Counted from the first letter of the stretch, positions 23,925 through 51,161 are shown. The stretch: 64,000 bases of DNA from Trypanosoma brucei (GCA_000002445.1 AL929603.2:864001-928000); one strand, 5' to 3'. Translations and numbers: made by a program. The notes: generated from the sequence alone by a model not told the origin.

Positions 23925-23975
23925 AAAGGAAAAGGAAAAGGAAAAGGAAAAGGAAAAGGAAAAGGAAAAGGGAAA
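23925..23975. repeat. (GGAAAA)n hexanucleotide repeat, ~9 copies
   Basis: aaaaggaaaaggaaaaggaaaaggaaaaggaaaaggaaaaggaaaaggaaaaggg, 150 nt downstream of the DnaJ-RING stop. Confidence 0.9.
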
Positions 23976-25295: not shown

Positions 25296-25340
25296 TGTCA
25301 TTTGTCATTTGTCATTTGTCATTTGTCATTTGTTGTTTGT
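25296..25340. repeat. tandem 9-mer (TGTCATTTG)5
   Basis: ctgtcatttgtcatttgtcatttgtcatttgtcatttgttgtttgt in the intergenic region. Confidence 0.9.
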
Positions 25341-31843: not shown

Positions 31844-32408
31844 ACGATGGAAAGTGCAATTAATCGGTTGAGTGACTGGAACTGTGTGTAAAGTAGAAGA
31901 AAAGTAATTGAGGAGGAGACGACAAATAAAAGGAGAATTAGATATGGCTTTTTCTTATGTTTTAGATGGAGCCAAAGAGCTTGGCACAAGGAAAAAGGTA
32001 TGAGCCAATGTATATATATATATATTAAACGTATTGATAACTCCGTTCTATGAGATGAAAGGGGTAAAAAAAAAAGAAAAAGAAAAGAAGAGAGGGAAAA
32101 AAGAGTGACAGCGTGGCAGTGAATTATACATGCCATTCCGCACACATTTTCATTTTTTGTCACCCCAATGGGGTCTCTCTGTTGTTGCCTCCTTGTTGGA
32201 AATGGCCGGCAGGCATTTTAAAGGCGACGGGGTTCATATATGAGTGTTGTTGTTGTTGTTTTTCTTGCTTTTCGCTTTAAAATGAAAATGAATAAAAAGT
32301 GAGAGTGAAAGAGAAGGGAACGAAAAGAAGAAAAAAAAAGTAGATCAAACAGACAAACGGACTAAAACGAAAAAGGAAAAGAAAATAAATGAGAGGAAGC
32401 GCGGCACT

Positions 32409-32425
32409 TCCATTTCCATTTCCAT

Positions 32426-32461
<36 letters not shown>
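32409..32461. repeat. (CCATTT)3 plus (AT)16 microsatellite
   Basis: ccatttccatttccatttgaatatatatatatatatatatatatatatatatatat. Confidence 0.95.
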
Positions 32462-32464
<3 letters not shown>

Positions 32465-35400
32465 CCTCTTCACATTTGCGAAGCATGAAACAAATAAACA
32501 AAGAGAAGAAGAAAAAAAAGATATGGGGTGAGTTGAGATCATAATAATTTACTACAATTACTGTTATGATGGTTATTTTTATTACTGTTGTCAAGTCAAC
32601 ACAAGGAGAGGATTAGAGGCGTGAAAAGGAGAGAAAACAAATTTTGAAATATAAAGCACTTTTTTTTTTGTTGCTGTTGTTGATGTTGATGAATTTTGAT
32701 GATGTTCCCTCCTTTTTTTAAAAAAATTTAACTACCTATTTATCTATTTATCTATTTATTTAGTTATCTTTCTTTCCTTCTTTGTTTTATTTTTATTTTG
32801 TGTCCTACCGTTTTGATTTGACTCTTTCCGTTGCTATATTTCCATTTATTAGACGTAATGAAGTGTTTTGAAAGATACAAGAAAGACAAGAAAAGAAAAG
32901 AGAAGGAAAAGAAAAAAGAAAACAACAACAACAACATTATTAAAAGAAGAAAAGAAAAGAAGAAGCAAATAAAACAAATAAAAGGGGAAATGAGGGAGTG
33001 TTCTCTCTATCCCTGCGTGGGACTGCAGGAGGTTCCAGCAGTTATGCACATGTAGTTCATATGTTATGTATTAATGTCGTGAGGGGAAAATGATGACACG
33101 TATTTATTTATTTGTGTGTGTTTTATTATTATTATTATTTAAAATAAATAAATAAACATAAAACAAAAACAAAAATATAAAAATGTTTATTTATGCCTGT
33201 GAGAAGAGACATGGAAAAGGAAAAGGGGAATACGGGAGAGGGAGAGTATGGGAAGAGGAATATATAGGGAAAAATAGAGCAAAAAGGAATGGAGGGTTCC
33301 GTTTGGTTTTCGATGGTAATATTCATAATAAATAATAAATAATAATAATGAGAAAAATAATGAGGTGAAATATGCGGGATTGTGTTTATATGGCGCGCAC
33401 ACATTTTTTCTTTTTTTTGTTTTTGCATCATCATTGCTTTGGCTACTTGTTTTCTTTTCTTTTCTTTTTTTTTGCATTATTTGTTTACTGGGAAGAATTT
33501 TTTTGTTTTGTGTGTTTGTGTGTGTGTGGGTTTTTTTTTTGCCACTGGATCAAATAAAATAGCGGCAACAATAATAAAAAGAAAAAAAAGAGAAAGACTA
33601 AGGGAAATTATAATTGTTGTGTTAAATGTTAAACAAAAGTGAGTAATGTAAACAAAAAGAAATTATATATATTTCTAATGGGAGCAGGAGAAAAAAAAAG
33701 GAAGAGAGGAGAAAATAAAAATAAAATAAAAATAAAATACAAGGAGGTTTGGAGGATTACGATATTTGGAGTTTATGAACATAAGGGGGTAAATAGTCAC
33801 CGTGAGATGAGAGTGAGGGTAAACGTGAAGATAAATAAATAAATTAATCGTATATGTAATAATGAAAAAAAAAAGGTGAATACTTGGAGAAAAGTATAAC
33901 AAAAAATAAACAAAAAGAAAAGAAAAGAGGAAAATGCAGGAGGAGAAAAAAGAGGGATGAAGTCCCATGCGACAGTGTCCCACCGTTTTCTAAGATTTTT
34001 TTTCGTTCCATTTACAATTTTGCCACTGAACACGTCACAGTTTCCTTTTTCCTTTTTTCCTTTTCCTCCTCTCCTCCGTCATTGCCCTTAAATTAAAGAA
34101 TATGCGAATGATATGGTAACGTTGGGGAAGAGAAATGTCTGGGGAAATTTACATATGTTTTATATACCTGTTGGTTCGCACTTTATATATATATATATTT
34201 ATTTATTTTCCAGTTGTGTTTGTTGAAACCCGTGAGTCTGAGAGAAAATAGAAGGAAGTGAAGTGCAGCGGGTTCGCGCTTCTTTTTTTTTTTTATAGAG
34301 TTTTTTTTTTACATTTTTACTCATCTCCGGTATGGTGGCGCACAGCAGTAATTCCTAATATTATTATTATTAATTATTAATTATTGTTTATTATTATTAT
34401 TATCATTTCCCTTTCCTTCCCTCTTTTCAGCTCCGAAGTTCCGTATGTGTCAAACTTCCACAAAAATGTCGAATGTAGAGGCTCCTGCCAGCGAAATGAA
34501 CAAAAAAGAAAGAAAAAAGGAAGAAAAGGAAAGAGAGCAGGGTAAAGTTTTAAAAAAAGAAAAAAATACTAAAAAGGAAAGTTTCTCCCTGTCTTTTTTT
34601 AAAAAAAATTTATTTACACTTTTATTTCATGAATTTTGGTTCTTTCTTTGTTTGTTTGTTTCTTTCTTCTCATTTCTTCTCTCATTTCCTCGTAATTCGG
34701 TGCCACTGTACGTTTATATCATGGCAACAGTGCCACAACCGTATGTCACCATCGCTACCACTGTTATTATATTATATATTTATATTTATATAGTAATAAT
34801 ACTAAAAATAATTACTTTCATTACGACTAGTACCTACGATTACTACCATTGCTAGAGGAGTGGTTGTAGTGAAATAGTTGGAAATATTATGTGATGTTGC
34901 TAACAATTATTGCGGTGCATACGAACATATACACATATGCTTATATATGCGTATGTGCGTGTGTCAGTGCCATGTCGTCTTTTATTTATTTTCATTTTTA
35001 TTCCTCTTTCACCTGGTTCTCCCAACTTGTTGTTCGCGTATGTATTTTTCTCGTTTTCTTTTTTTCCTCTTCTTCTTTTCTTTTCCTTTTGTGAATGTTG
35101 AGTTGAGTTGAGTTTAGTTTAGTTTCTGTTTTACTTTTTGTTTTTTTTTCCTTTTTTATTTAGTTGCTGGCTCCCTGTCTTTGAATCTCTGCGGGGAGCC
35201 TCTGTTGTGGTATATTCTCGTTTCTTTTTTTTTTTTTGTGTTTGTGTGACTTTGCGGCAGTCCATCAACGAAACTTATAAAAGTGAAAAGGAAACAAAAA
35301 CAAAAGGAAAGGAACGTTGAAAAAAAAACCCCTAAGAGATATTAACTATCAACATTTACGAAGAAAGGATAGGGGGAATAGATATAACGGGAAGCCGCAT

Positions 35401-35637
35401 TGATACAAAAATATACACATACACACAAGGGAATAAATATATACTCATAAATATAGAAGGTAAGAGAGGGAAAGAAAAATAAAAAAAGAAAAAAAGAAAA
35501 GGAAAAGGAATAAGGGAATAAGGGAATAAGAGAACAGAAACCAGAGACACATACACACACGAAGAAGGACAAGTAGTCCATTGTCGAGCTGTTTTCTTTT
35601 TTTTGTCTGTTTACCGTAACGAAGTGAGCATTTTTCA

Positions 35638-37788
35638 ATGAGTAGTACTGAAAGCAGCGGTGGAGGGTCGAGTAACGCTTCCCCAAGGTCAGATGGTGAA
35701 GGCTCCACTTCCATTACTAGAGTCAGCAGCAGCAGCAGCAGCGATAGCAGTAAAAGCAGCAGCAAAAGTAGTACCAGCAGCAGCGGTAGCAGTAAAAGCA
35801 GCAGCGAAGATGAGAGAAAGAAAAACCCTGGAAAGAAAAAAGGAGTGTCTGTGCAGTCAAGTGACACGACGAGTTATAATATGCAGTCGTCTTCGTTCAA
35901 AGTTAGCGGATCTACTGAAAGAAAAGACAGCCGTAGCACAACAACGAAGTCCCAACTTGGGTCAGAAAGTAAAGCACAAACTAGTTTAGATTCAGAACTA
36001 GCGACAACAGAAGATAAATCGGGGTGCCGTGAGGAGTGGGCGGAGTTGCGCAACATGGTGTCGGATATCCGCTCGCGAATGAAGCAGTGCCACCTGCCAC
36101 CATTAGATGTGACAGTAATTGAAAAGTTTATACTCCGAGTAGTGGAGGAGAGCGAAGGGGGTAACAGCTCACCCGCAGTCGTCTCCGCTCCTCAGCGCCT
36201 CAGGAATTGCGGGAGGGTTCGCCCACTGCGATATTCTTTGCCTGGAGGGCCATATGTTAGAAACATACCGAGTCGCATTACTGTGACGAAGTCACTTGGG
36301 CGTGTGGTGCAGTTCAGAGCGCGGTCACGTCACGCCGATCATTATAATTCCGTGTACAATCAGTTGCAGGCCGCTGCTGATGTATGTGTGCCGGGACGCT
36401 TAAGCGCAACGGAAGGTGGCGATGGTGGTGGTAGTGCCGTTGGTGCGCATGGAAGTAAAATGCCAGGAGGATCTTCTCACGCTCCGTTGGTTTTCGTTGG
36501 GTACGATAACGGTAACGGTGATAAAGGCGGTGACATTGATATGGACCAGGATATAGACGTGCCAATGTTGTTTACTCCAGGTGTAATGGAGGTTATATGC
36601 CTAGACAACATTTTGCGCAGGCATGAGCAATCCATTCTCATCACGCTGGCTGCCATTAACAAACGGGAATCTGTTATGGAGAGACTTCGTGCCTTCTTGG
36701 TTATTGCTGCTAAAGATTTATCTATACCTTCAGCGGGTGGATATGACGTGGGGACGGATGGTTGTTCCAATAGTGCAGACGGCAATCCTGCATCTGCTAC
36801 TGCATCGTCTCTGGTTCTCCAGCGCTGTGGTGCACCGGTACCCCTTAGGCGTTACATGGATGTTAACGATGCGAGCTGGACTTCATTCCGTGCCAAAGCC
36901 AACAAGAAGAAGTGGGGTGTTCAAAGTTTGAAACAGCGGTGGGGCTCCGATGCACGACTGCGCGGCGGATATCCGGCCGTGTGGCAGCGCTATTATAAGT
37001 TGGGTGTGTTGTGCCTCTTATATCAGCTCCAGCAGGCATCGTTGGAGGTGGTGGAGGGCATTCGTGCATGGCGTGGGACTCTTACCGCCCCGTTTCCATT
37101 TGTTACCAAAGGGCACAATTATTTGCTTGCCATGGCGCAAAGTATGGCTGAACTCGCCAATGACCCCGTCATGCATTTCCTCTTCCCGCCACCTACCCCG
37201 AGGAAGAAGAGGCCTGGGGAACCAAAACCAAAGCCTGGCATCAGTTTCAAATTTAGTGATCCCGACCCGGCGAGTTTTGTATTGCCCATGTGCCTACAAT
37301 ATTACCCACTGCTTTCCAATATGCCGCATTTACCAGTGTACAAACAACCTCCTAATGCTTTGGTTGGGATTAACACTCCATTCGACTTTGGAGGTGCTGA
37401 CACCAAAGGAAATGAGGAGGGTCTGAGAGGAACAATTCCCATGCCATCTTCTTATGTTGGGGCATTGGTGGTGCATCAAGGCCGTATACGCCCTAACAGT
37501 AGCAGTGGCGGCAGCGGTTCCTCTCAGACCCTTTTAGATTTATCGTATGGCCGTCGGTTATTAAAGGCTGAACAGGTTGTACATAGTGAACTGCGTGTAC
37601 AGTTGCGGTTGATAGAATGGGAATTGACGTTGTGTGCGAAGGGGTGTTATCCCCTTCTGCTACGCGATGTGGGCCAAACGGAAGTAGTATATTTACGATC
37701 AACAAAGCGGCAAGAAGAATGGTACTTTCACCTGCGTGACAAACTCATTTGTCTTGAGGAGGGAAGTAGTGCCGTAGTGAGAGGTTAG
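35638..37788 (+). CDS. hypothetical protein, poly-Ser N-terminal region
   Basis: 716-aa ORF. The N-terminus is (AGC)n-encoded SSSSSSDSSKSSSKSSTSSSGSSKSSS. The remainder is an ordinary-complexity globular region (e.g. NILRRHEQSILITLAAINKRESVMERLRAFLVIAAKDL). No family recognised. Confidence 0.75.
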   Translation: MSSTESSGGGSSNASPRSDGEGSTSITRVSSSSSSDSSKSSSKSSTSSSGSSKSSSEDERKKNPGKKKGVSVQSSDTTSYNMQSSSFKVSGSTERKDSRSTTTKSQLGSESKAQTSLDSELATTEDKSGCREEWAELRNMVSDIRSRMKQCHLPPLDVTVIEKFILRVVEESEGGNSSPAVVSAPQRLRNCGRVRPLRYSLPGGPYVRNIPSRITVTKSLGRVVQFRARSRHADHYNSVYNQLQAAADVCVPGRLSATEGGDGGGSAVGAHGSKMPGGSSHAPLVFVGYDNGNGDKGGDIDMDQDIDVPMLFTPGVMEVICLDNILRRHEQSILITLAAINKRESVMERLRAFLVIAAKDLSIPSAGGYDVGTDGCSNSADGNPASATASSLVLQRCGAPVPLRRYMDVNDASWTSFRAKANKKKWGVQSLKQRWGSDARLRGGYPAVWQRYYKLGVLCLLYQLQQASLEVVEGIRAWRGTLTAPFPFVTKGHNYLLAMAQSMAELANDPVMHFLFPPPTPRKKRPGEPKPKPGISFKFSDPDPASFVLPMCLQYYPLLSNMPHLPVYKQPPNALVGINTPFDFGGADTKGNEEGLRGTIPMPSSYVGALVVHQGRIRPNSSSGGSGSSQTLLDLSYGRRLLKAEQVVHSELRVQLRLIEWELTLCAKGCYPLLLRDVGQTEVVYLRSTKRQEEWYFHLRDKLICLEEGSSAVVRG

Positions 37789-38988: not shown

Positions 38989-39220
38989 TAAACAGAAAAC
39001 TAAACTAAAAAAAAGAATAGGGGGAAGGGTGTGGTACACTGACAACGCAAACGAAGGACAGATTAGCCTACTGTGAGGGTTGGAACTTTTAAAAAAAAAA
39101 TAATTAAAAAATCCGGAAAGGAAAAGTTTCAATAATAAAAGGAAAAAGAGAGAGAGAACGGGACAAAAGAGGAGGAAGTCTCTCTCTGTGTGTGTGTGTG
39201 TTTGTGTGTTTGTGTGAGAC

Positions 39221-41026
39221 GTGATGGATACTCTCTTTTATTTTCCTGTTGGATGCCTTATTGGCGCTGTTTGTGTAGTTATATGTTACCTCTTTGGCAT
39301 GGAGTGTCCGGTATTTGTTGGTTCCACCGTCAAGGGCGCCGCATGCTTTATGGTGCAGAAGCTTACTAACTGTGATGTTTCCCTTTTACGCAGCAGCACA
39401 TTATTCATACCATCTGATAGTTCCTCTTTTTCTTTTGTCCCGAATCATGGGATTGGATCAGCTGCCAGGAGGTCGCTGTATGGCAGGAATGATAATGAGA
39501 TTAAAAATCCACTGATGACACAACGATGCCAGAGTCCTCACTCGGCGGGATCGACTTTATCACCGGAACGGTTAACAGTCATGTGCCAACTGGCCATGTG
39601 CCATGAAGATGAGGAGGATTATGTTGTGAGGAACTGCCACCTGGTGATGTCGGAATCGTTTATGATGTTATACGAAGTGCTTTCTTCACATAGCGTTGGA
39701 AACCATGAACGTGCAATTACAAATGAACGTTTTATTGGCCGCATACAGATGGACCGAGTGGTATCCCGGGCGATTTATGTGAGCTCGGCGGATAAGCGCT
39801 CCCTTCGCACCGGTGGGTTGCATGGGCACATGTTGATGCTCACAACTCATTCGGGCGATGACGGTCTCTTCTTTGAGGCTGAAGATGGTGAATGTGGTAT
39901 AGAGGAGGAGGATCCATCATTGGGTGTGACGGTGCGTGGCAGTAAATGGTGGGATGCAAGTAGTAAAACCCTTCATGATGTAATGTTAGGGAGGAGGAGG
40001 AGCAGTGGGTTGGTAGGTGTCACTAAGAGGGATGAGTCAGTTGAAAAACTCAGCAACTCGGCTAGTCTTCGTGCATCTGTCGGCGGACATGGGGAGAATT
40101 CATGCAGTGACCACGTTGGTGGGGGGAGTCCATGGGATGAAGATAATGGTAGTGAAGAGCCCGACCCCGATGCCAAAGGAACATCACAGATGTATATATT
40201 TTTGAAGTTTCGCTACGCGCGGGAGCAAGAGCGGGTGCACAATCTCCTTGTGGGAATGCACGAAGCGGTGCATTGGCACGAGTACTTGCAGACAATCCCA
40301 ACACCTAATGCCTTCAATGTCTTTCTGTCACGCGTGATATTTCAAAGTCTGCGTAGTACGGCGCTCGCCAACTTTATTCGTGAGAAGATCCAAAAATCAT
40401 TGGACATCATGGCCGTCAAAAAGTTCCCGAGAGGGCTTGAAGGTCGGATTCTTCTCGATGACGTTGCCCTAAACTCTGAGGTTCCTGTCATTAGCAATGT
40501 AACGGATCCACTTATTTTGGCGAAGGGTGAAATGATGTTCGACCTCGACATATTGTACCGTGGTGGTGCCTCGCTTCTGTTTCGATCGTGTTTGACGTAT
40601 CGTGGTGTTCGCATTCCCCACGTTACACTTTATGTGAAACTCGTGCGGGCAGAGGCGCGGCTGCGAGTGAGCGTTGGTCCGCCACCCAGCAAAGTGTTTT
40701 GGGTTGGCTGCCTCGCTCCACCGGATGTGCAATTGGAGGTGAGTCAAGGCATGGAAAGCGGTCATGGCTTGCTTCATCGCCTCCTCACCTCACTGCCTAA
40801 TTTGAGCGGTATCGTAACGAAACTTCTCAAATTGTACCTCTTGCATGAGATGATGTTGCCACTGATGGATGACTTTCCACTGCCTAATGTTGAGGACACA
40901 CCTCCCGTTACACCGCGAGATGATGGCAAGAAGACGTGGAATGTTCCGTTTTGTAGAAGGGAGGCGATGAGGTACATTCAGGAGCATATGAACATACACT
41001 GGTTTCAGGAGGCGGGTGATCATTAG
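39221..41026 (+). CDS. membrane-anchored SMP-domain (synaptotagmin-like mitochondrial lipid-binding, TEX2/Nvj2-like) protein, paralogue A
   Basis: 601-aa ORF. The N-terminal hydrophobic anchor is MMDTLFYFPVGCLIGAVCVVICYLFG. The C-terminal ~160 aa (ILLDDVALNSEVPVISNVTDPLILAKGEMMFDLDILYRGGASLLFRS...TYRGVRIPHVTLYVKLVRAEARLRVSVGPPPSKVFWVGCLAPPDVQLEV...LPLMDDFPLP) matches the SMP consensus I remember from the TEX2/Nvj2/PDZD8 group: PPS-x-R/K-hW-hGF-x-PP-x-hxh...h-LP-NMDD. It aligns clearly with the downstream gene. Confidence 0.8.
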   Translation: MMDTLFYFPVGCLIGAVCVVICYLFGMECPVFVGSTVKGAACFMVQKLTNCDVSLLRSSTLFIPSDSSSFSFVPNHGIGSAARRSLYGRNDNEIKNPLMTQRCQSPHSAGSTLSPERLTVMCQLAMCHEDEEDYVVRNCHLVMSESFMMLYEVLSSHSVGNHERAITNERFIGRIQMDRVVSRAIYVSSADKRSLRTGGLHGHMLMLTTHSGDDGLFFEAEDGECGIEEEDPSLGVTVRGSKWWDASSKTLHDVMLGRRRSSGLVGVTKRDESVEKLSNSASLRASVGGHGENSCSDHVGGGSPWDEDNGSEEPDPDAKGTSQMYIFLKFRYAREQERVHNLLVGMHEAVHWHEYLQTIPTPNAFNVFLSRVIFQSLRSTALANFIREKIQKSLDIMAVKKFPRGLEGRILLDDVALNSEVPVISNVTDPLILAKGEMMFDLDILYRGGASLLFRSCLTYRGVRIPHVTLYVKLVRAEARLRVSVGPPPSKVFWVGCLAPPDVQLEVSQGMESGHGLLHRLLTSLPNLSGIVTKLLKLYLLHEMMLPLMDDFPLPNVEDTPPVTPRDDGKKTWNVPFCRREAMRYIQEHMNIHWFQEAGDH

Positions 41027-41053
41027 GTTTTGGGTTTGCCCATTTTTGTCCAT

Positions 41054-41064
41054 GTGTGTGTGTG

Positions 41065-41096
<32 letters not shown>
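41054..41096. repeat. compound microsatellite (GT)8(CA)(TA)12
   Basis: catgtgtgtgtgtgtgtgtgcatatatatatatatatatatatata, immediately 3' of the stop of the first SMP gene. Confidence 0.95.
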
Positions 41097-41098
<2 letters not shown>

Positions 41099-41701
41099 TA
41101 TAGTGAAGGTCCCTGGACCACCCACTAAACAGTTTCTTTGACGCGATCTTCTGGCATCCTGCCAAAAATTTCCTGCTTCATCAACGACACTTATCGCTCG
41201 TACGTTGTTTGAGTTCTATTCAACTTGGGGGAGGATTTGAGATGTTTTTCTTTCTTCTTTTGATTGCTTCTGTTTATTGCTTTTCTTTTTCTTCTTTCTT
41301 TTTTTTAAAAACCCTTTTCGCGTGGTGTTGGAGCTTGTGAGCACGCGACACGCTGGAAATGGGGGGAGGGAGATGGGCGGCTCCTCAGGACATTTCGTCG
41401 CAAAAAAAAAAAAGAGGTGTCTGTAGTTATACGCTATACTAACGGACGTGCTTGACTAAAGTTAAGGAAGATAAGTTGTTGCGAGAGCATTATCTTATCT
41501 CTGTATATGCATACAAATATTTGCATATACAGATGTAAGAATATTCCTACGTGCAGATTGGTTGTTGATTACACTTGCGTCAGAAAACAACAACAACAAG
41601 CAAACATATCTATTGGAGCTTGTTGTACCTGATTTCTGCTTGTCATTATGTTGACCTCAATTTTCTCCTTTTTACAGTTCGCTTCCTTTCGTCTTTTATA
41701 T

Positions 41702-41736
<35 letters not shown>

Positions 41737-41737
41737 C
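41702..41737. repeat. (TA)n microsatellite
   Basis: ttatatatatatatatatatatatatgtatatatatatc in the spacer between the two SMP genes. It lies inside the upstream extension of ORF 41575, which is why that extension is rejected. Confidence 0.95.
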
Positions 41738-42009
41738 ATGTTATTTATTTAATCTTTTTCATCTTTTTTTTTCTCATCTTCTTCTCTCGCATTTCTCATC
41801 GTGAAACACCACGTAATTCCCTGCGCCGTAGCCCTCAGAGCCAAAGTGTAGAAGGAGAGGAGAGACATTTAAACGAAAGGGGTGGTGAAGGCGGAGGCCT
41901 CCACCAATCCGCTTCGAGTGCCCGTGCGGACGCTCACACACGCTGTAACGTTGAGCCAATAGCTTTTGTTGCGTTGCAGGAGGAAAGACGGGCGTGTCAG
42001 GTTTTGTGT

Positions 42010-43602
42010 ATGTTGAGTCTGCTGCTTCTACTGCTATGTGGTGTTGCCTGCGGGGCAGTGGCAACTGTCTTTAGCGTGTGGTTCGCTTTCATTAGGTTCG
42101 ATAACTTCCTTCAGCGCGTGTTGGAGCGTAATGAGGAAGCTGCTATCCGAGCATTGGAGGATACGCGTACGAGTGTGACGGTGCCGGCATCCAAAGTGGA
42201 GGGTATTTGTGAAATGGCATGTTTTGATGGTGATGTCGTATGGAAGACGATTCCTGTGCGGGCTGTGCTCTTTGGTTCTACCGTGTCCGTGTATCGATTA
42301 GTTACGCGGGAGATGTCAGATGACCTTAACAACACCGTTGTGTGTGGAGATCAGTTGATTGGGAAGATAAATACAGATTCTGTCATCAGTTCTGTGGTAA
42401 AGATATCTAAATATCATCGACATGTGAATATAGCGGAACGGTGTTCGCCAGTGTCGGGCCAATGTCTTCTGCTTCGTCATAAACCAGGCCTTCCTTTGTT
42501 TCTTGTAGATCCAGTCGTGCAACTGAAGCAAAGACTTCGTCGGAAGCAGAGGGAGCAAACCAGCAGGGGGACAGTTCATCATTCACCGCTTCAAGACGAT
42601 GACGAGGATTTCATCAACGCGAAGGACACGCATAGCGACCAAAGGAACAACAGCCAGAGTAATAACTTGTCCAGTTCTGCGCTTGACTCTTCATCTTCTG
42701 TGGATGGTAGCGGGGAAGACTATAGTAAGTGGACCGCGGTGCTGTTTAAGATGTGTACGAGAAGGGAGTTGGAGCGCTGGTACAATTTGCTCCAGGGTAA
42801 TTCTCAATCAGAGGAGTGGCGCAATTTCATCAAACGGTTAACACGCGCCGATGCTCTCAGTCTTGTAGTTGCACGTCTCTACTTTGCTAACACGGACACG
42901 AGTAGTCTACAAGATTTGCTCACCCGAAAGATCAGACGGAAGCTACGAAGGGTGTCGAGGAGGCTTCCTAATCACATGAAAGGGGAGATTATACTGGACC
43001 GCTTGGAGCTTGGTGAAGAGATTCCGCTTCTTGACTCGGTAAGCGATCCAGTTGTTTCACCCAATGGTGAGATAGAATTTGACTTTTATCTCCTGTATCG
43101 CGGCGGCCTCCACTTCAGCCTACGGTTCAGCATAACGTATCGCGGCATGCGTGTGCCAGACATTATTTTTAATGTGAAGGTGCTTCAGCTGTCGAACCGT
43201 GTGCGGCTCAATGTCGGTCCCCCTCCATCAGCAAAGATTTGGCTGAGCAGCCCACACACGCCGCATCTGCAGCTGGAGTTTACGCAGGAAGTTGCCACAA
43301 ATGATGGTTTCCTACACACCTTACTGAAGCTCCTTCCAGATATGAGTGCCATCATGACGACCATCGTGAAGGTGAAATTATTTGAGGATATGCTGCTTCC
43401 ATCCATGGATGACTTCCCATTGCCGTGCCTAAGTTACTCTCCATCCTCTTCGGAGGCGAGTGATGATGGTGAAGAGGATGTGGATGCAAAAGTGGAGTAC
43501 AGTTTTGCATCACCAGCAGAAGAGGAGTCGTCACCACCGCCACTCCGCAGCTTTGACGCCGTGAGCATGGGGTCATTGATCGAACGTCGACCACATAGGT
43601 GA
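42010..43602 (+). CDS. membrane-anchored SMP-domain (TEX2/Nvj2-like) protein, paralogue B
   Basis: The ORF is given as 41575..43602, but codons 41575-42009 run through an (AT)n microsatellite and poly-T tracts (translation LYIYIYIYVYIYHV...FFIFFFLIFF). The Met at 42010 (MLSLLLLLLCGVACGAVATVFSVWFAF, a hydrophobic anchor mirroring paralogue A) is taken as the start. The C-terminal block IILDRLELGEEIPLLDSVSDPVVSPNGEIEFDFYLLYRGG...TYRGMRVPDIIFNVKVLQLSNRVRLNVGPPPSAKIWLSSPHTPHLQLEF...LPSMDDFPLP aligns with the upstream gene. Confidence 0.8.
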   Translation: MLSLLLLLLCGVACGAVATVFSVWFAFIRFDNFLQRVLERNEEAAIRALEDTRTSVTVPASKVEGICEMACFDGDVVWKTIPVRAVLFGSTVSVYRLVTREMSDDLNNTVVCGDQLIGKINTDSVISSVVKISKYHRHVNIAERCSPVSGQCLLLRHKPGLPLFLVDPVVQLKQRLRRKQREQTSRGTVHHSPLQDDDEDFINAKDTHSDQRNNSQSNNLSSSALDSSSSVDGSGEDYSKWTAVLFKMCTRRELERWYNLLQGNSQSEEWRNFIKRLTRADALSLVVARLYFANTDTSSLQDLLTRKIRRKLRRVSRRLPNHMKGEIILDRLELGEEIPLLDSVSDPVVSPNGEIEFDFYLLYRGGLHFSLRFSITYRGMRVPDIIFNVKVLQLSNRVRLNVGPPPSAKIWLSSPHTPHLQLEFTQEVATNDGFLHTLLKLLPDMSAIMTTIVKVKLFEDMLLPSMDDFPLPCLSYSPSSSEASDDGEEDVDAKVEYSFASPAEEESSPPPLRSFDAVSMGSLIERRPHR

Positions 43603-44099: not shown

Positions 44100-44966
44100 A
44101 TGCCCATCACTGGACCGTCACATTCGCTTCGGTTTGGACCCGATGATACCGGCAGGGAGGGATGCTCTCAAGGGCCATTATTGGGCACATCAACCGGGCA
44201 GTCCCGTCTCGATGGGAGCAGCGCATCACTGAATGCCATTGCTCGATTTCGTTCTTTGGATAGATCTTTTCCCGTTGCGCAAGCTCTACGACAGAGGGTG
44301 AGGGGACCAGAACCTGCCGCCCCAACATCCGCAATTCAGCGCGCCGCCCCTCTCAGTAATGAAAATTCCGGCATTAACCGATCGGGAATCAACAACACCC
44401 GCGGCTCGTCGGTGGTTTCACCATATGGCATAGGCCCAGCTGCTCTTGTCTACCCAACTCATTCACAAACATCAGCGGTGGAATCCATGTCCCGGTCATC
44501 ATCGTCATCGTCGTCATCGTCATTGCCTCCTCGGCAACTAAATGAGTTGTGGCAGATGGTACGAGATCTCAGGGCAGAAAATGCTGTACTGCAGCAGCGA
44601 GTTGGTATATTGATGGAGGGCGGTGATGAGAAATTTGAGGAGACACTGCAGGGCATTCCACTGCATGGGACTGAGCATGAAAAGAATACCACGGGAGTAT
44701 CTTCAAATAACACCACCACTACCACCAGTGCCGCACGTCCTAGCAGTGAGAAAGCTGGTGCAGTTTCCGATACTACACTTCTCAGCGAAGGAAGTGGAGG
44801 TAAGAATGGACATATGACACCATATCTATTTGCAGAGAGGGAAGCGATGCTAAAGCGAATACGGCGGTTGGAAGCGGCACTAAAGTTGGAGGCGATGGAA
44901 CGTGATGCGCTGGAACTGCGGTTGAGAGCTCAGGAACGTGTACTTGCCCGGTTTGTGCAACAATGA
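44100..44966 (+). CDS. hypothetical low-complexity protein with C-terminal coiled coil
   Basis: 288-aa ORF on the transcribed strand with a polypyrimidine tract upstream (about 43790-43900). It is Ser/Thr-rich (S9 run) and has a C-terminal heptad region (EREAMLKRIRRLEAALKLEAMERDALELRLRAQERVLARF). No family recognised. Confidence 0.55.
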   Translation: MPITGPSHSLRFGPDDTGREGCSQGPLLGTSTGQSRLDGSSASLNAIARFRSLDRSFPVAQALRQRVRGPEPAAPTSAIQRAAPLSNENSGINRSGINNTRGSSVVSPYGIGPAALVYPTHSQTSAVESMSRSSSSSSSSSLPPRQLNELWQMVRDLRAENAVLQQRVGILMEGGDEKFEETLQGIPLHGTEHEKNTTGVSSNNTTTTTSAARPSSEKAGAVSDTTLLSEGSGGKNGHMTPYLFAEREAMLKRIRRLEAALKLEAMERDALELRLRAQERVLARFVQQ

Positions 44967-45534: not shown

Positions 45535-47871
45535 ATGCAAAAAACCCCTCGATTAACGACGCGAAACCTCTTTGACGAGGTATTTGCCACTATTCCTGCA
45601 GATGTAGTTCTGAACACCGGGCCCGCCTCTCTGAGGGAGAAATACGCCCTGATGGAGAGTATTCAGGCTGAAAATGAAGAACAAAATACTGACGGCATTA
45701 CTTTTACCACTGAGGAAGGGGGCGACAACGGCTCTGCGGCAGACGACCCGGGCCCTAACGGTAATTTGACGGAAGAAGGCATTTTAGATTTCAGCGCGGT
45801 AATGCGCCATGCAGCCAAAAGGACAGAGGAGCAGCAGCATGGGGATCAAGAGCAGGGAGGGGAAGTTCACCGTACGATTGATCTGCAGCTCGACGCTGAG
45901 GACGAGGCGGTGCAGGAGGCTATGAAGTACGCTTCGTTGTTTGACGATGTTGAACAGCCGCAACGTCAGCAGTCCGTTGGGGTTGACGCTGATGGTAATG
46001 AAGGTGGGGATGGAATTGTTAATAACACTGGAGATGGCGGGCCAGGCGTTGGGGCTTCCAGTAAAGGTACAGCAGGAGGGATGTTTACTTCCTCGCACGG
46101 CACAAGACACCATACGATGCAACATCAACATCAACATCAACAGACAAGTGGTTCTGCACAAAACGCGCCACGCAGGCAGCTTACGGCGGAAGAGCAGATT
46201 GCGTTAATGTGCCCTGGGGACGGGAGACGTCATACAGGGCGTTGTGTGTTGTTCAGACAGAACAAAAATTTTGGTTTCATTGCGCCGGACATAGGAAACC
46301 CAGATGTGTATTTCACACGGGAAAGCATTGAATTCACTTTCACTCGCCGTGTACTGGAAGCGTTTTTTGGCATGCCGGTGAGCGCTAACGCGCAGCATAG
46401 AGAAGGAGGAAGAGATGACGGAGTGGATAGCCGCCAGTCCCATCGTCGCCAGCGCCGGCATGGAAGTGAGACAGTTTCTAACACGAGTGGCACCAACAAT
46501 TGCAACAACGAGGGAAGTGGAAATGAGGCCGTGCTTGACGGGTTTGCCATTGCAGAAAGGAATATTGAAAGTAGTTGCACGGGTGAAGTTATCAGGGAAG
46601 AGCAACCGGCTTTGCCTGTGGCTGAGACTAATGCGGGTGGGGAAGTCTCGCTAGAGCAACCTCCAGATTCCGATACGGTGACCTCAAGAGGGGATAAGAA
46701 GGGGAATGGAGTTAAGGCGATGACAACAGTTGGGGTTAGTGAAATAGTGCAGACTGAAGAGGTTAAGGAAAAACCCGATGATGGAAGTGCGGGAAGTGGG
46801 GATAATGGTGGAACTGTTGCCAATGCAGAAGCGAACGATATGATCCAGAGGGCTGCTGCACTCCTTACCCCCGAGGCAGCTCGACTGCTTGCGCTCTTCC
46901 TACAAGTTGGTCAACCCGTTTTGTTGGTGGGGGAACCCTTGACATTTACGGTGCGGTGGAACACTTCTGTTAACCGGACAAACAGACGGTTGCGAGCTGA
47001 CAACATCGGTGGTCTTCCAATAAATCATCACGCATTAGCGATTGAGCAATCTTGGTTTAGTTTCGTCTTTAATCCTGGAGCCGAGCGCGGGCGAGACGGA
47101 AGGGGGAATCGGAACCAAGGCGTGCCAACGGAAGGATCGCCATCAGCCTCAGCGGGGGAAAGTGTGCCCGAAGAAAAAAAAGGTGGTGCTGAAGAGAAGG
47201 TATCGGTTCCCGGGAAGGAAGGGGGCCCAGAGACCGGGGATGCGGTGCAGAAGCAAGGGGGAAATGGACTAATGGAAGGAGGGGATAGTGGAGGTGTGAC
47301 GGTAAAGGAAAATGAGGGGGGGAAGAAGGAGAAGCGGAGGGAACGGGACAAAGGTGGGACAGGAAGCGAACGACCGGTTTGTTCTGTTCTTCGGCGCTAT
47401 CGCGGGGTTATTTACGTTTACGATGCGGATGAGCACCGGGGTCACATTCGCCCTGAAGTGAACGGCTCCTCAACGGTACAATTTAGCAGTGATGCTTTCC
47501 TATGGGCGTCATGGATGGAGGCCGGCAGGCGTCGCCCCGCGGAAGGGCTCGTGGTGAATTACTCTCTTGGTGGCACAAATAAGGGTGGTAAACACATTGC
47601 GACATTAATCACTGCCACTGACGACACTGCTCTGAGTGATACAAACTTGGTGTGGGAGACGAAAGTGGCAAATGAGAGAGCACTCAATATCGGCAGGACA
47701 GCTAGTGGTAATGGCAGCAGAGTGGAGAACGGTGATGGGGACCGGCGTAACGGCGGTGCCGGTGGTGCTACGGGCGCTGGTGGAAATCGTGACGAAGGAG
47801 CAAAGGGGCGAAAGCGTGGACGTGATGAAGAGTTACCATTGCTGGAGGAGGACGACTACGGCATCATGTGA
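45535..47871 (+). CDS. large protein with two cold-shock (CSD/OB-fold) nucleic-acid-binding domains
   Basis: 778-aa ORF. The segment HTGRCVLFRQNKNFGFIAPDIGNPDVYFTRESIEF fits the cold-shock domain pattern G-x-V-x-WF-N-x-x-KGFGFI-x-x-D-x-G-x-DVF-VH-x-S-I. A second, weaker copy is CSVLRRYRGVIYVYDADEHRGHIRPEVNGSSTVQFSSDAF. Gly/Glu/Lys-rich low-complexity linkers and a C-terminal tail surround them. Confidence 0.8.
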   Translation: MQKTPRLTTRNLFDEVFATIPADVVLNTGPASLREKYALMESIQAENEEQNTDGITFTTEEGGDNGSAADDPGPNGNLTEEGILDFSAVMRHAAKRTEEQQHGDQEQGGEVHRTIDLQLDAEDEAVQEAMKYASLFDDVEQPQRQQSVGVDADGNEGGDGIVNNTGDGGPGVGASSKGTAGGMFTSSHGTRHHTMQHQHQHQQTSGSAQNAPRRQLTAEEQIALMCPGDGRRHTGRCVLFRQNKNFGFIAPDIGNPDVYFTRESIEFTFTRRVLEAFFGMPVSANAQHREGGRDDGVDSRQSHRRQRRHGSETVSNTSGTNNCNNEGSGNEAVLDGFAIAERNIESSCTGEVIREEQPALPVAETNAGGEVSLEQPPDSDTVTSRGDKKGNGVKAMTTVGVSEIVQTEEVKEKPDDGSAGSGDNGGTVANAEANDMIQRAAALLTPEAARLLALFLQVGQPVLLVGEPLTFTVRWNTSVNRTNRRLRADNIGGLPINHHALAIEQSWFSFVFNPGAERGRDGRGNRNQGVPTEGSPSASAGESVPEEKKGGAEEKVSVPGKEGGPETGDAVQKQGGNGLMEGGDSGGVTVKENEGGKKEKRRERDKGGTGSERPVCSVLRRYRGVIYVYDADEHRGHIRPEVNGSSTVQFSSDAFLWASWMEAGRRRPAEGLVVNYSLGGTNKGGKHIATLITATDDTALSDTNLVWETKVANERALNIGRTASGNGSRVENGDGDRRNGGAGGATGAGGNRDEGAKGRKRGRDEELPLLEEDDYGIM

Positions 47872-48272: not shown

Positions 48273-51161
48273 TTGTGGAGGGGAGTATTCGCTGTTCGAC
48301 AAACACCGAAACAGCCACGACGAATGACGACAACTCAAGGTGAAGTAATCTCCACCACTTTTTTCAGCAGCAAGGCTCTACTGAAATCCCTGCAAGATGT
48401 GAGCCGCAGCCTCCACATAAGTGGTAATCAATTTCTGCCGCCCAACACCGTTTTGCTTTGTGCCGTCGGTTTAGGCTTTTTGGTTGATGGCGTTTATACT
48501 GCAACCGTGTGGTTTCGAAACCGACGGGCCCTTAATGTGGAACGTGCCGTCAACCATCATAATGGGCCGGTGAAGTTTGTGGTGACCGATGAGTTAGAGG
48601 ACCGCGACGAGGAAGCGAAAGCGTGTTTAGTGCAGCAGTACAGTGACGAGTTATGCAAAGCAATTCTTGGGGCGCCGCGGACGTCACCAGGCTCATGGGC
48701 CAGATCTCCCCCTGCAGACGCCGTCGCCGAGTACGAGACACTTCCTGAGCCGATTCGACTGCTGTGGGAGGACCGTGTGAGGTACACTTTGGACGCGCGT
48801 GAGGTCGTGGGTCTTCTGCGCAGGCGGCTGGAGCCTCACTTGGCCGGGTCGAGGTACGGGCCCAGTGCCGCTCTGATGGCATTATTGTGGCGTTTGCAGC
48901 TCCTGCGCACCGTTCACGAGTCTATAGTGATCGCCGGAGACGTGGGACGGTGCAATGCCGAGTTGACCGAACTTGGAAAGCACACAGGAGCTCTTTATCG
49001 AGAGTTTATTTCTACGTTACACGCACCGGTGCGGGTCCCCTTCGACTCTTGCTGGGAGTGTTTGTCCGCCGAAGACGACCGGTTGCGTGGGCAGGCAAGG
49101 GCGTTACAGCTGCGCAACCTTTGGAGTCTCACCAGATATGTGTTTGCAGGGGGGCTCGATAAGTTATGCACTTACGGTATGGTGGGACTGCTCACTGCTT
49201 TTGCTGCCCGTAGTGCGAGTGCGATTTGTACAATCAGGGTGGACGTGGAGCAACTTCTTCCTAATCTCTTTGGCACCGCTGCTTCCATCAATACTGGGGG
49301 AACCACCGGGGACGGTGCCATCGTCTCATGGACTGCCATGCACATCGTCGTAGCGCGTCTTCTCGTTTCCGAGTGGATGTTGCACATGTTGCGTCTGGGA
49401 ATCACACGGGTAACACAGGACTACACCCACGCCTCTGCTGCATGGCGCAGGGACACTGTGAAGCACCGACTATACGATGCACTCACGCGGACACCCTTAA
49501 GTTACTTCGACAAAACGGAACGTTACGCTGTTGAGGAGATTGTGTACTACGTTAATGACCTTGAGGGGGTTGATGTTTTTGTGCATGACTTCTTTACGCG
49601 GCTGGCACAGTCTGGCATTTCATTGTGTGTGGCATTAAGGGTGTTAGACATGCGGAGTGCGGTGACCGTTATGGGAGCGGTTGCTGGAGCAAGTCTTTTA
49701 AATGCTAGCCTGAGTTTTCTCAAGAAGACCTACTGCGCCCTCTCATATTGTAATGGGATTGGGTTTGAGGCGGTTGACAGCCCGTCGGATGCAGAGGAGG
49801 AGGAGAATCGGAAAGATACAACAGACCACCTGATGTTCTGTGGGATGGACATTATCGAGCACATCCCCGAGCTGCGCCCGTACGGCGCTGACACCAAACT
49901 GATGGAATGGTGGAACAACTACACCGCTCACTACCGACGGCGTTCCTGTGGCCTGCGTCGTGTTTTCCAATTAACCTATAACTCCCGCTACCTTTGGGCG
50001 ATTGACGCTCTTAAACCGGTCGCACGGTGGCTTCTTCCCGCTATTGTCGCTGCGAATGCTGCGGGCACGTGTCAAATACAAGTCTTTCTTCTTGAGGCAA
50101 TACGGGCCTCGCAGGATGTATTGGAGCGTGTGGTGGACGTTCAGCGTGTTGTGGACGTAGTGGGATATAATGCATACAAGGCTGGGGTGCTTGAACGTAT
50201 CCTCGACTCCAAGAATTGGGAGGATGGAGACACCGCGGAGAGGATCTGTGAGCATACGAATAAGGGCAATATCAGTGATACTACTGCACTTACTTGTGAT
50301 ATGAATGGCGGTACGTATAAGAAAAACAAGGAAGATGGAGAGTTGAGGCTTAAAGGAAACGACGTGGAGGTGCTGGCTGTTCGCGCGAACGGTTTGCAGT
50401 TTCGTTATCCAACAGCACCAACTGTTGATGCCTTTCTGAAGCCCGCTTCGTTTCAATTTGAGTTGAGGAATAGGACGACAGGTCTTGGGCGGCTTGTGTG
50501 CATCACGGGAGTTAGTGGCTGCGGCAAAACAACACTCCTGCGCCTTCTATTGGGGCTTTACGCGCCGGAGAACCCCAACACTCTCCTTCTTGAGTTTCGG
50601 TTGCGACGGCATCATGTGTCGGAATCCAACGGAGGGGGAACGGGTAATAGCGGTAATAAAGAGCAGTGGGCTCCAGTTGAGCTTATACCGCGAGCTCAGC
50701 TTCGGTCTACTTTTTTCAGCTACGTGCCACAGGCCCCAACTATATTTCCTGGCGCGACCATAGCCCAGAATGTCTCACTTCGGAACCGCGTTTCAATTAC
50801 GGATACGTTGGTCCTTGAGCGGGTGCGTGTCTGCACGGAGGCTGCGGGTTGCGGTCATTTCATTAAGCGCTTGCCAAATGGTATCATGACGCCACTGTGC
50901 GTGAATGTTGGTTGGGCGACGCCCGATGCCGTGCGACTGAGTTGTGGTCAGGGGCAGAGACTAATGTTAGCTCGTGCTCTATTCCACTGTTCCAGTGTAC
51001 TTTTGTTGGATGAACCCACAGCAGGGTTAGACAGTGAGACGAAGAAAGCAGTCATGTCACAGTGGCGTGAGTTGCTGTCTTCTGGACTCGTGGGTGGTAT
51101 CATATGCGTGTCGCATGACGCCGATGTGTTGCAAATGGCGGATGAGACCGTAACATTGTGA
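48273..51161 (+). CDS. ABC transporter family protein (N-terminal hydrophobic region plus C-terminal ABC ATPase domain)
   Basis: 962-aa ORF. The C-terminal domain carries a Walker A (ITGVSGCGKTTLL), a Q-loop (YVPQAPTIFPGATIAQNV) and a variant ABC signature (LSCGQGQRLMLARAL). It also has a Walker B (LLLDEPTAGLD) and an H-loop (ICVSHD). The N-terminal ~650 aa has several hydrophobic segments (LLCAVGLGFLVDGVYTATVWF; ISLCVALRVLDMRSAVTVMGAVAGASLL). An alternative start is the Met at 48324. Confidence 0.85.
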   Translation: MWRGVFAVRQTPKQPRRMTTTQGEVISTTFFSSKALLKSLQDVSRSLHISGNQFLPPNTVLLCAVGLGFLVDGVYTATVWFRNRRALNVERAVNHHNGPVKFVVTDELEDRDEEAKACLVQQYSDELCKAILGAPRTSPGSWARSPPADAVAEYETLPEPIRLLWEDRVRYTLDAREVVGLLRRRLEPHLAGSRYGPSAALMALLWRLQLLRTVHESIVIAGDVGRCNAELTELGKHTGALYREFISTLHAPVRVPFDSCWECLSAEDDRLRGQARALQLRNLWSLTRYVFAGGLDKLCTYGMVGLLTAFAARSASAICTIRVDVEQLLPNLFGTAASINTGGTTGDGAIVSWTAMHIVVARLLVSEWMLHMLRLGITRVTQDYTHASAAWRRDTVKHRLYDALTRTPLSYFDKTERYAVEEIVYYVNDLEGVDVFVHDFFTRLAQSGISLCVALRVLDMRSAVTVMGAVAGASLLNASLSFLKKTYCALSYCNGIGFEAVDSPSDAEEEENRKDTTDHLMFCGMDIIEHIPELRPYGADTKLMEWWNNYTAHYRRRSCGLRRVFQLTYNSRYLWAIDALKPVARWLLPAIVAANAAGTCQIQVFLLEAIRASQDVLERVVDVQRVVDVVGYNAYKAGVLERILDSKNWEDGDTAERICEHTNKGNISDTTALTCDMNGGTYKKNKEDGELRLKGNDVEVLAVRANGLQFRYPTAPTVDAFLKPASFQFELRNRTTGLGRLVCITGVSGCGKTTLLRLLLGLYAPENPNTLLLEFRLRRHHVSESNGGGTGNSGNKEQWAPVELIPRAQLRSTFFSYVPQAPTIFPGATIAQNVSLRNRVSITDTLVLERVRVCTEAAGCGHFIKRLPNGIMTPLCVNVGWATPDAVRLSCGQGQRLMLARALFHCSSVLLLDEPTAGLDSETKKAVMSQWRELLSSGLVGGIICVSHDADVLQMADETVTL

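What the first reader, a model, noticed from the sequence alone, without database searches (positions are those of the whole stretch)
39221..43602. Tandem pair of diverged, membrane-anchored SMP-domain (TEX2/Nvj2-like) lipid-transfer-type proteins
The two adjacent genes are 39221-41026 and 42010-43602. Each encodes an N-terminal hydrophobic anchor, a long middle region that does not align between the two copies, and a C-terminal ~160-aa block that aligns with the other copy. The blocks ...YRGG...TYRG(V/M)R(I/V)P...RL(R/N)VGPPPS(K/A)(V/I)W...P(P/H)...LQLE(V/F)...LL..LP..S.I.T...K..L.E.ML(P/L)(L/S)MDDFPLP appear in both. The PPS-x-hW ... hLP-NMDD pattern is what I recall for SMP (synaptotagmin-like mitochondrial lipid-binding) domains of the TEX2/Nvj2/PDZD8 branch. 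Those domains form tubular lipid-transfer modules at ER membrane contact sites. Two side-by-side copies with about one third identity in the domain suggest an old duplication, with both copies kept. They could form a heterodimeric tube (SMP domains dimerise) or serve different contact sites. The intervening spacer carries (GT)n(TA)n and (TA)n microsatellites.
Basis: partly seen in the sequence, partly recalled or inferred. Interest (0 to 1): 0.6.

Follow-up and report, generated by a model that had tools for sequence, protein, structure and literature searches.

The report
Tandem trypanosome PH–SMP lipid-transfer gene pair
Two neighbouring trypanosome genes encode old, diverged copies of a membrane-anchored PH + SMP lipid-transfer-type protein of the yeast Nvj2 / human TEX2 kind; databases already label them this way, so this is a correct but fairly ordinary finding about uncharacterised genes.

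Summary
Gene A (39224-41026, 600 aa) and gene B (42010-43602, 530 aa) are intact + strand ORFs. There is no meaningful DNA-level similarity.

Two corrections:
- A direct Pfam scan of A and B finds nothing significant.

The same A-then-B tandem is present in Leishmania mexicana, so the duplication predates the Trypanosoma/Leishmania split.

Public records already call these proteins "DUF2404" or "SMP-LTD domain-containing". No experimental study was found. Lipid transfer, ER anchoring and any A–B heterodimer are inferred, not shown. Novelty is low and interest modest.

The parts
39224..41026 (+). Gene A: 600-aa TM-PH-SMP protein, the faster-evolving paralogue
   Evidence: ORF. 99% identical to the 600-aa P0001. 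Orthologues in T. congolense (49%), T. cruzi (39%) and T. conorhini (39%). L. mexicana orthologue L001:3066-5897, phmmer 1e-80.
39230..39298 (+). Gene A N-terminal hydrophobic helix (aa ~3-25), a presumed membrane anchor
   Evidence: The only hydropathy peak in the protein (2.33). AF2 helix 2-27, pLDDT 78-84. Membrane insertion and topology are inferred.
39572..39847 (+). Gene A PH domain, strands 1-6 (aa 117-208)
39884..40180 (+). Gene A low-confidence, presumably disordered, insert within the PH domain (aa 221-319)
   Evidence: pLDDT below 50. Poorly conserved and of variable length among orthologues.
40190..40294 (+). Gene A PH domain strand 7 and C-terminal helix (aa 323-357)
   Evidence: AF2 E323-329 and H332-357, pLDDT 82-85. 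Aligns with the 'KEDWY..L' PH C-terminal helix of non-kinetoplastid PH-SMP proteins in hhalign.
40310..40885 (+). Gene A SMP (TULIP-fold) domain (aa 363-554) with the YRGG, VGPPPSKVFW and LPLMDDFPLP motifs
41053..41102 (.). (TG)9(AT)15 compound microsatellite just after the gene A stop codon
   Evidence: TRF; sequence.
41697..41736 (.). (TA)20 microsatellite in the A-B spacer, next to polypyrimidine tracts at 41245-41306 and 41745-41790
   Evidence: TRF; sequence. The role of the pyrimidine tracts as trans-splicing signals is inferred from general trypanosomatid biology.
42010..43602 (+). Gene B: 530-aa TM-PH-SMP protein, the slower-evolving paralogue
   Evidence: ORF. 100% identical to T. equiperdum 'Putative integral membrane protein conserved region (DUF2404)'. 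Orthologues across Trypanosoma, Leishmania, Novymonas and Angomonas.
42013..42096 (+). Gene B N-terminal hydrophobic helix (aa ~2-29)
   Evidence: The only hydropathy peak in the protein (2.49). AF2 helix from residue 2, pLDDT 79-86.
42196..42480 (+). Gene B PH domain, strands 1-6 (aa 63-157), including the B-clade-specific conserved SKYHRH loop
   Evidence: AF2 strands E63-157, pLDDT up to 91. Foldseek DH-PH and PH matches. SKYHRH is conserved in B orthologues and absent from A orthologues.
42571..42711 (+). Gene B low-confidence insert within the PH domain (aa 188-234)
   Evidence: pLDDT below 50.
42736..42795 (+). Gene B PH strand 7 and C-terminal helix (aa 243-262)
   Evidence: AF2 E243-247 and H251-262, pLDDT 75-88. 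Aligns with A323-342.
42844..43425 (+). Gene B SMP domain (aa 279-472) with the YRGG, VGPPPSAKIW and LPSMDDFPLP motifs
   Evidence: Foldseek: Mmm1 E 4e-5, Mdm12 TM 0.60, TMEM24 SMP. 37% identical to the SMP domain of A.

Best explanation
Genes A and B are ancient tandem paralogues. Each encodes an N-terminal membrane anchor, a PH domain interrupted by a disordered loop between strands 6 and 7, and a C-terminal SMP (TULIP-fold) lipid-binding domain. This is the architecture of yeast Nvj2 and animal TEX2.

**Most likely mechanism (inferred by analogy, not shown)**
- The N-terminal helix anchors each protein in the ER, with the rest facing the cytosol.
- The PH domain and the flexible linker reach a partner organelle membrane through phosphoinositides or a protein adaptor.
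- The SMP domain, probably as a dimer, shields glycerolipid or ceramide acyl chains in its hydrophobic groove and shuttles them between the two membranes at a contact site.

**History and divergence.** The duplication happened before Trypanosoma and Leishmania diverged, and both copies have been kept in the same order. The PH domains have diverged much more than the SMP domains. B keeps a conserved SKYHRH loop that A lacks. This points to sub-functionalisation in targeting (different contact sites or regulation) rather than in the lipid-carrying core.
For: **Shown**
- The two proteins are homologous (phmmer 5e-56).
- One hydrophobic N-terminal helix in each.
- The family profile reaches 679 proteins.
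- The non-kinetoplastid relatives carry KPPPSNRxWxGF and VLPNMDD. 50 of 62 hit Pfam PF10296, 27 hits fall in three PH families, and none hits the E-Syt-type SMP_LBD family.
- hhalign between the kinetoplastid and PH-SMP alignments: probability 100%, E 3e-38.
- The PH-SMP profile hits solved Mmm1 at 1e-13, Mdm12 at 4e-6 and PH domains at 1e-5 to 7e-7.
- Public names: 'DUF2404', 'SMP-LTD domain-containing', and precomputed Pfam PF26547 PDZD8_N.
- The tandem A-B order plus the downstream gene is conserved in L. mexicana. T. conorhini has adjacent locus tags 01329 and 01328.
- A diverges faster than B: 49% against 60% identity to T. congolense, and 39% against 50% to T. cruzi.

**From the literature**
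- Nvj2/Tex2 are built as TM helices + PH + SMP, reside in the ER, and transfer ceramide or glycerolipids. SMP domains dimerise (PMC11320393, PMC9930140).
- Amoebozoan SMP proteins of this type are classed as Nvj2 (PMC10648710).
Against: - No direct significant Pfam hit for A or B. Orthologues reach only sub-threshold PF10296 matches, E 0.07-0.26.
- The kinetoplastid profile alone finds no solved SMP chain by sequence.
- The models have moderate confidence: mean pLDDT 62, domains about 70-90, from only 19 sequences.
- The best solved-structure matches are ERMES subunits, because no TEX2/Nvj2 structure appeared among the hits. Fold alone therefore cannot place the proteins in the TEX2 branch.
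- Nvj2/Tex2 are described with two TM helices (PMC11320393). Here only one clearly hydrophobic segment is present.
- No localisation, lipid-binding or dimerisation data exist for these proteins in the literature searched.
Confidence: 0.8

Rival explanations
1. A and B are the divergent kinetoplastid counterparts of ERMES SMP subunits (Mdm12, Mdm34/Mmm2 or Mmm1-like) and act at ER-mitochondrion contacts rather than as Nvj2/TEX2-type proteins.
For: - The top solved-structure matches are Mmm1 and Mdm12.
- The sub-threshold Pfam hits are to the family named MMM1.
- PMC6027259 says Mmm2 and Mdm12 orthologues were proposed in T. brucei (citing Wideman 2013).
- I could not determine which genes those papers mean.
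Against: - Mdm12 and Mdm34 are soluble or peripheral proteins with no TM helix and no PH domain, and Mmm1 has no PH domain. A and B have TM + PH + SMP.
- The closest sequence relatives are PH-SMP proteins carrying the KPPPSNRxW / VLPNMDD motifs.
- The kinetoplastid profile does not hit Mmm1 or Mdm12 sequences directly.
- PF10296 also covers the PH-SMP proteins, so the family name does not discriminate.
Confidence: 0.08
2. A and B are PDZD8-type SMP proteins, as the precomputed Pfam label PF26547 'PDZD8_N' suggests.
For: All kinetoplastid orthologues carry the precomputed PF26547 hit. PDZD8 also has an N-terminal TM helix followed by an SMP domain.
Against: - There is no PDZ, C1 or coiled-coil region C-terminal to the SMP domain. 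The tails are short and low-confidence and no other Pfam domain is found.
- A PH domain precedes the SMP domain, which PDZD8 lacks (PMC11320393, Figure 1 legend).
- The same PF26547 label is attached to dictyostelid PH-SMP proteins that also hit PF10296 and PF23065, so it is not PDZD8-specific.
Confidence: 0.04
3. The SMP-like domains have lost lipid-transfer capacity. The proteins act only as tethers or scaffolds, or one copy is a degenerating duplicate.
For: - Gene A evolves faster than B and has lost the conserved SKYHRH loop.
- No lipid-binding data exist.
- For Tex2, the literature notes that SMP dimerisation and lipid transfer have not been separated functionally (PMC9930140).
Against: - Both ORFs are intact, and both have orthologues retained from Trypanosoma to Leishmania with 34 invariant columns, most of them in the SMP domain.
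- The SMP core is the best conserved part in both clades.
Confidence: 0.08

Closest known systems
Nvj2 (S. cerevisiae) / TEX2 (animals): the TM-PH-SMP branch of SMP lipid-transfer proteins
   Same: - Domain order: N-terminal membrane anchor, PH domain, C-terminal SMP domain (PMC11320393).
- Shared motifs with non-kinetoplastid PH-SMP proteins: PPPS..W after the long beta-hairpin, and LP.MDD at the C-terminal end.
- hhalign E 3e-38 to an alignment of amoebozoan and fungal PH-SMP proteins.
   Different: - Only one clearly hydrophobic N-terminal segment, against the two TM helices described for Nvj2/Tex2.
- No long disordered N-terminal extension like the TMEM55-binding region of Tex2.
- The PH domain is split by a 50-100-residue low-confidence insert.
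- The sequence is too diverged for a direct Pfam hit.
- Two tandem paralogues are present.
- Orthology was not tested with named reference sequences.
ERMES SMP subunits Mmm1 / Mdm12 (solved structures 5yk6, 5yk7, 5gyd)
   Different: No PH domain in ERMES subunits, only 14-16% sequence identity, and no direct sequence-profile hit.
TbE-Syt (Tb927.10.13740), the one characterised SMP protein of T. brucei (PMC8093936)
   Different: TbE-Syt has a TM hairpin, an SMP domain and two C2 domains, with no PH domain. None of the 62 relatives scanned hit the E-Syt-type Pfam SMP_LBD family.

Membership tests
SMP / TULIP-fold lipid-transfer domain superfamily | TULIP fold: an N-terminal helix or helices packed against a long, highly twisted beta-sheet that forms a barrel or groove | tested here: met
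SMP / TULIP-fold lipid-transfer domain superfamily | Significant sequence-profile match to a curated SMP family (Pfam PF10296 or PROSITE SMP-LTD) | tested here: inconclusive
   - Direct hmmscan of A and B: no hit at E <= 1. Orthologues reach only E 0.07-0.26.
- Indirect link: the kinetoplastid profile reaches relatives at 1e-13 to 1e-28, and 50 of the 62 scanned hit PF10296. hhalign E 3e-38. That profile hits solved Mmm1 at 1e-13.
- UniRef names the orthologues 'SMP-LTD domain-containing', and PF26547 is precomputed for them.
SMP / TULIP-fold lipid-transfer domain superfamily | Hydrophobic lipid-binding groove and actual lipid binding or transfer | not testable with these tools
Nvj2 / TEX2 branch | Architecture: N-terminal TM anchor(s), PH domain, then SMP domain | tested here: met
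Nvj2 / TEX2 branch | Phylogenetic grouping with named Nvj2/TEX2 SMP domains to the exclusion of PDZD8, Mmm1, Mdm12, Mdm34 and E-Syt | not tested
   No named reference sequences could be obtained. The nearest relatives are unnamed or called 'PH domain-containing' / 'SMP-LTD'. Only indirect support: shared motifs and PF23065 PH_SMPa in relatives.
Nvj2 / TEX2 branch | ER residence and recruitment to contact sites | not testable with these tools
   Needs tagging and microscopy.
ERMES SMP subunits (Mmm1/Mdm12/Mdm34) | SMP domain without a PH domain; Mdm12 and Mdm34 lack a TM helix; assembly with the Mdm10 beta-barrel | tested here: not met
   A and B each have a TM helix and a PH domain. Complex formation is not testable here.
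PDZD8 | TM-SMP followed by PDZ, C1 and coiled-coil regions | tested here: not met
   No PDZ or C1 hits. The C-terminal tails are short and low-confidence.
Extended synaptotagmins / tricalbins | TM hairpin, SMP domain and C2 domains | tested here: not met
   No C2 hits. None of 62 relatives hit Pfam SMP_LBD.

The most novel reading that the evidence does not exclude
The two paralogues are an obligate A-B heterodimer: a head-to-head SMP tube with two different PH targeting heads. Such a pair would be a trypanosomatid-specific lipid conduit, possibly standing in for the missing conventional ERMES at contacts between the ER and the single mitochondrion or the acidocalcisome. The 'proposed Mdm12/Mmm2 orthologues' of the older literature would then in fact be this Nvj2-like pair.
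Probability: 0.1. Interest if true: 0.6.

Novelty: new member of a known kind. Interest (0 to 1): 0.3.

Why it matters
Trypanosomatids lack a conventional ERMES complex. They have a single mitochondrion, and how lipids reach it is poorly understood. Only one SMP protein, TbE-Syt, has been studied there (PMC8093936). A 2023 review even states that Leishmania donovani has no SMP-domain proteins (PMC10341546). That statement conflicts with this family, which is clearly present in Leishmania mexicana.

A conserved pair of Nvj2/TEX2-like proteins gives two concrete, testable candidates for non-vesicular lipid transport at ER contact sites in these parasites. It is also a natural case for asking what a retained SMP duplication does: heterodimer or separate targeting. 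It is not a new kind of system, and automated annotation already flags the domain.

Tried and rejected
- **BLASTP via protein comparison.** With composition-based statistics it missed the main alignment. phmmer and uncorrected BLASTP were used instead.
- **Direct Pfam scans** of A, B, their C-terminal halves and four orthologues: nothing significant.
- **Kinetoplastid profile against PDB sequences:** only chance hits.
- **afdb50 fold library:** unavailable, so no match to predicted TEX2/Nvj2 models could be made.
- **Third homologue search with the PH-SMP alignment:** returned only dictyostelid proteins, none named Nvj2/TEX2.
- **Three cluster look-ups.** They gave 'PH domain-containing' or 'SMP-LTD' names for distant relatives. 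They gave no names or taxa for the deep relatives of the A and B clades, all of which come from unnamed Logan/ENA assemblies. The age of the duplication beyond trypanosomatids is therefore unknown.
- **Literature searches** for DUF2404, Nvj2/TEX2 or SMP together with trypanosomes found no study of these genes.
- **Schnarwiler 2014 (PMC4040615)** is not held. I could not check whether the 'Mdm12/Mmm2 orthologues' proposed for T. brucei are these genes.
- **Rfam:** no RNA family anywhere in the window.
- **Recent or assembly duplication:** rejected, since there is no DNA-level similarity.
- **Pseudogene:** rejected, since both ORFs are intact and both clades are conserved.


Full report
**Observation**

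The window reads like a trypanosomatid polycistronic unit: all 19 ORFs of 200 aa or more but one are on the + strand.

- Gene A is 39224-41026. The ORF lister starts at GTG 39221, but the next codon is ATG, and it gives the same 600-aa length as a 99%-identical database protein.
- Gene B is 42010-43602, 530 aa, starting at the first in-frame ATG. It is 100% identical over its full length to a Trypanosoma equiperdum protein annotated 'Putative integral membrane protein conserved region (DUF2404)'. The window therefore comes from a T. brucei-group genome.

Each protein has a single strongly hydrophobic N-terminal segment.

The C-terminal parts are clearly homologous.
- phmmer gives E=5.3e-56 over A324-570 against B243-489.
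- The quoted motifs are invariant or nearly invariant in 19 orthologues.
- At the DNA level only a 38-bp, 76% match exists, so this is not an assembly artefact or a recent duplication.
- The spacer microsatellites are as described.

One detail needs correcting. The middle region is not wholly unalignable. A111-220 and B57-166 align weakly but well above shuffled controls: score 54 against 25 +/- 4.3, reached by 0 of 500 shuffles.

BLASTP with composition-based statistics did not report the main HSP. This is a tool quirk, not a property of the sequences.

**What the proteins are**

Direct Pfam scans of A, B and their C-terminal halves found nothing significant. Orthologues gave only sub-threshold PF10296 (MMM1, formerly DUF2404) matches at E 0.07-0.26. 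A profile of the 19 kinetoplastid sequences found no solved structure by sequence.

Three independent lines nevertheless agree.

*Structure.*
- AlphaFold2 models were built from the 19-sequence alignment. Mean pLDDT is about 62, with ordered domains mostly between 70 and 90.
- Both models show, in order: an N-terminal helix; six beta-strands; a low-confidence insert; a seventh strand plus a long helix; then two or three helices followed by a long twisted beta-sheet and two C-terminal helices.
- Foldseek gives Mmm1, Mdm12, TMEM24-SMP and other TULIP proteins first, then PH domains, for both A and B.
- I read the seven strands plus helix as one PH domain whose beta6-beta7 loop carries the disordered insert. 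This rests on the order of secondary-structure elements in the models and is an inference.

*Profile search.*
- The kinetoplastid profile, run against 1.84 billion representative proteins, found 679 hits at E <= 1e-3.
- Beyond the close relatives, the hits at E 1e-13 to 1e-28 match the SMP part.
- Of the 62 scanned, 50 hit PF10296. There were 27 hits to PH families (PF00169, PF23065 'PH domain associated with SMP domain', PF15413). None hit the E-Syt-type SMP_LBD family.
- Named examples are dictyostelid 'PH domain-containing' proteins and fungal 'SMP-LTD domain-containing' proteins.
- hhalign between the two alignments gives probability 100% and E 3e-38. The alignment covers the last PH strand and helix (ERW.NLL against KEDWY..L) and the whole SMP domain.
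- The PH-SMP profile in turn hits solved Mmm1 at 1e-13, Mdm12 at 4e-6 and PH domains at 1e-5 to 7e-7. This closes the chain from the window proteins to experimentally solved SMP and PH domains.

*Existing annotation.* UniRef calls many orthologues 'SMP-LTD domain-containing protein', and all carry a precomputed Pfam PF26547 (PDZD8_N) hit. That label is also attached to dictyostelid PH-SMP proteins, so it is not specific to PDZD8.

**Which SMP branch**

The literature describes the following architectures (PMC11320393; PMC9930140):

| Branch | Architecture |
|---|---|
| Nvj2 / Tex2 | TM helices, PH domain, C-terminal SMP domain |
| ERMES subunits | no PH domain |
| PDZD8 | PDZ and C1 domains after the SMP domain |
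| E-Syt, TMEM24 | C2 domains |

The TM-PH-SMP order found here, the shared motifs and the identity of the nearest relatives all point to the Nvj2/TEX2 type. Amoebozoan SMP proteins of this sort are classified as Nvj2 in PMC10648710.

I could not run a phylogeny with named reference sequences, and the AlphaFold database library was unavailable. Orthology to Nvj2/TEX2 is therefore probable rather than proven. One difference is that only one clearly hydrophobic N-terminal segment is present, whereas Nvj2/Tex2 are described with two TM helices.

**Evolution of the pair**

In Leishmania mexicana (FR799565.1), the gene immediately upstream of the B orthologue is the A orthologue.
- Upstream gene: phmmer 1e-80 to A and 3e-65 to B.
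- B orthologue: 3e-119 to B and 2e-59 to A.
- The next gene downstream matches window gene 45535-47871 by its N-terminal sequence.

T. conorhini orthologues have adjacent locus tags, and both T. congolense orthologues lie on one contig. The duplication therefore predates the Trypanosoma-Leishmania split, and order and orientation have been kept since.

A neighbour-joining tree of the domain separates an A clade from a B clade. It also places further relatives from unnamed assemblies beside them. Their taxa could not be determined.

Gene A evolves faster than gene B: 49% against 60% identity to T. congolense, and 39% against 50% to T. cruzi. The PH halves are far more diverged than the SMP cores (21% against 37%). 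A SKYHRH loop is conserved throughout the B clade and absent from the A clade.

**Mechanism (inferred)**

By analogy with Nvj2/Tex2, the N-terminal helix would anchor each protein in the ER with the rest in the cytosol. Arg residues follow the helix in B, consistent with that orientation. The PH domain and flexible insert would contact a partner membrane or adaptor. The SMP domain would carry lipid acyl chains between membranes, probably as a dimer.

The pattern of divergence favours different targeting or regulation of the two paralogues over different cargo. A heterodimer is possible, since Mmm1 and Mdm12 show that unlike SMP domains can pair, but nothing here tests it.

**Rivals considered**
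- ERMES-like subunits. These are the best structural matches, and older papers mention proposed Mdm12/Mmm2 orthologues in T. brucei (PMC6027259, PMC6871780). The TM helix, the PH domain and the nearest relatives argue against it.
- PDZD8-like. There is no PDZ or C1 domain.
- Loss of transfer function. The strongest conservation lies in the SMP core, which argues against it.

**Novelty and interest**

The domain assignment already exists in automated annotation. I found no paper that studies these genes. One review asserts that L. donovani lacks SMP proteins (PMC10341546), which is at odds with the Leishmania members found here.

This is a new, uncharacterised member pair of a known kind. It offers useful candidates for lipid-transport biology in trypanosomatids, but it is not surprising to a specialist.

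Noticed in passing
window 39221-43602; BLASTP with composition-based statistics (the protein comparison default, and -comp_based_stats 2) did not report the 178-bit A-B alignment at all. phmmer and BLASTP without the correction find it at E about 1e-53 to 1e-56. A negative result from that tool should not be trusted for these proteins.
   Followed up: yes
L001:3066-5897 (L. mexicana FR799565.1): The Leishmania orthologue of gene A (943 aa) carries no precomputed Pfam hit, unlike the B orthologue next to it. The A clade is therefore under-annotated. A 2023 review (PMC10341546) states that L. donovani lacks SMP-domain proteins, which conflicts with this family.
   Followed up: partly
window 44100-44966 (+): A 288-aa Ser-rich ORF with a coiled-coil-like C-terminus lies between gene B and the next conserved gene. 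It has no Pfam hit, and no gene is called at the equivalent position in L. mexicana. It may be Trypanosoma-specific or not a gene.
   Followed up: no
window 26861-31843 (+): A 1660-aa ORF with a Pfam FAZ1 conserved-domain hit (PF23398, E 1.3e-7). It is a flagellum-attachment-zone-type protein.
   Followed up: no
window 52526-56056 (+) and 48273-51161 (+): A Slowpoke/BK-type Ca2+-activated K+ channel homologue (Ion_trans_2, BK_channel_a, Slowpoke_C) and an ABC-transporter ATPase ORF lie downstream. An ABC transporter is also present downstream in the L. mexicana locus, so synteny extends beyond the pair.
   Followed up: no
window 39187-39216: A (TG)15-like repeat sits only a few bases upstream of the gene A start codon, inside what must be its 5' UTR.
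   Followed up: no
window 32001-36000 and 20001-26000: There are long intergenic stretches of low G+C (0.31-0.35). One has strong GC skew (0.34 at 32001-34000). No high-scoring tandem repeats (31800-35700) and no Rfam hits were found.
   Followed up: partly
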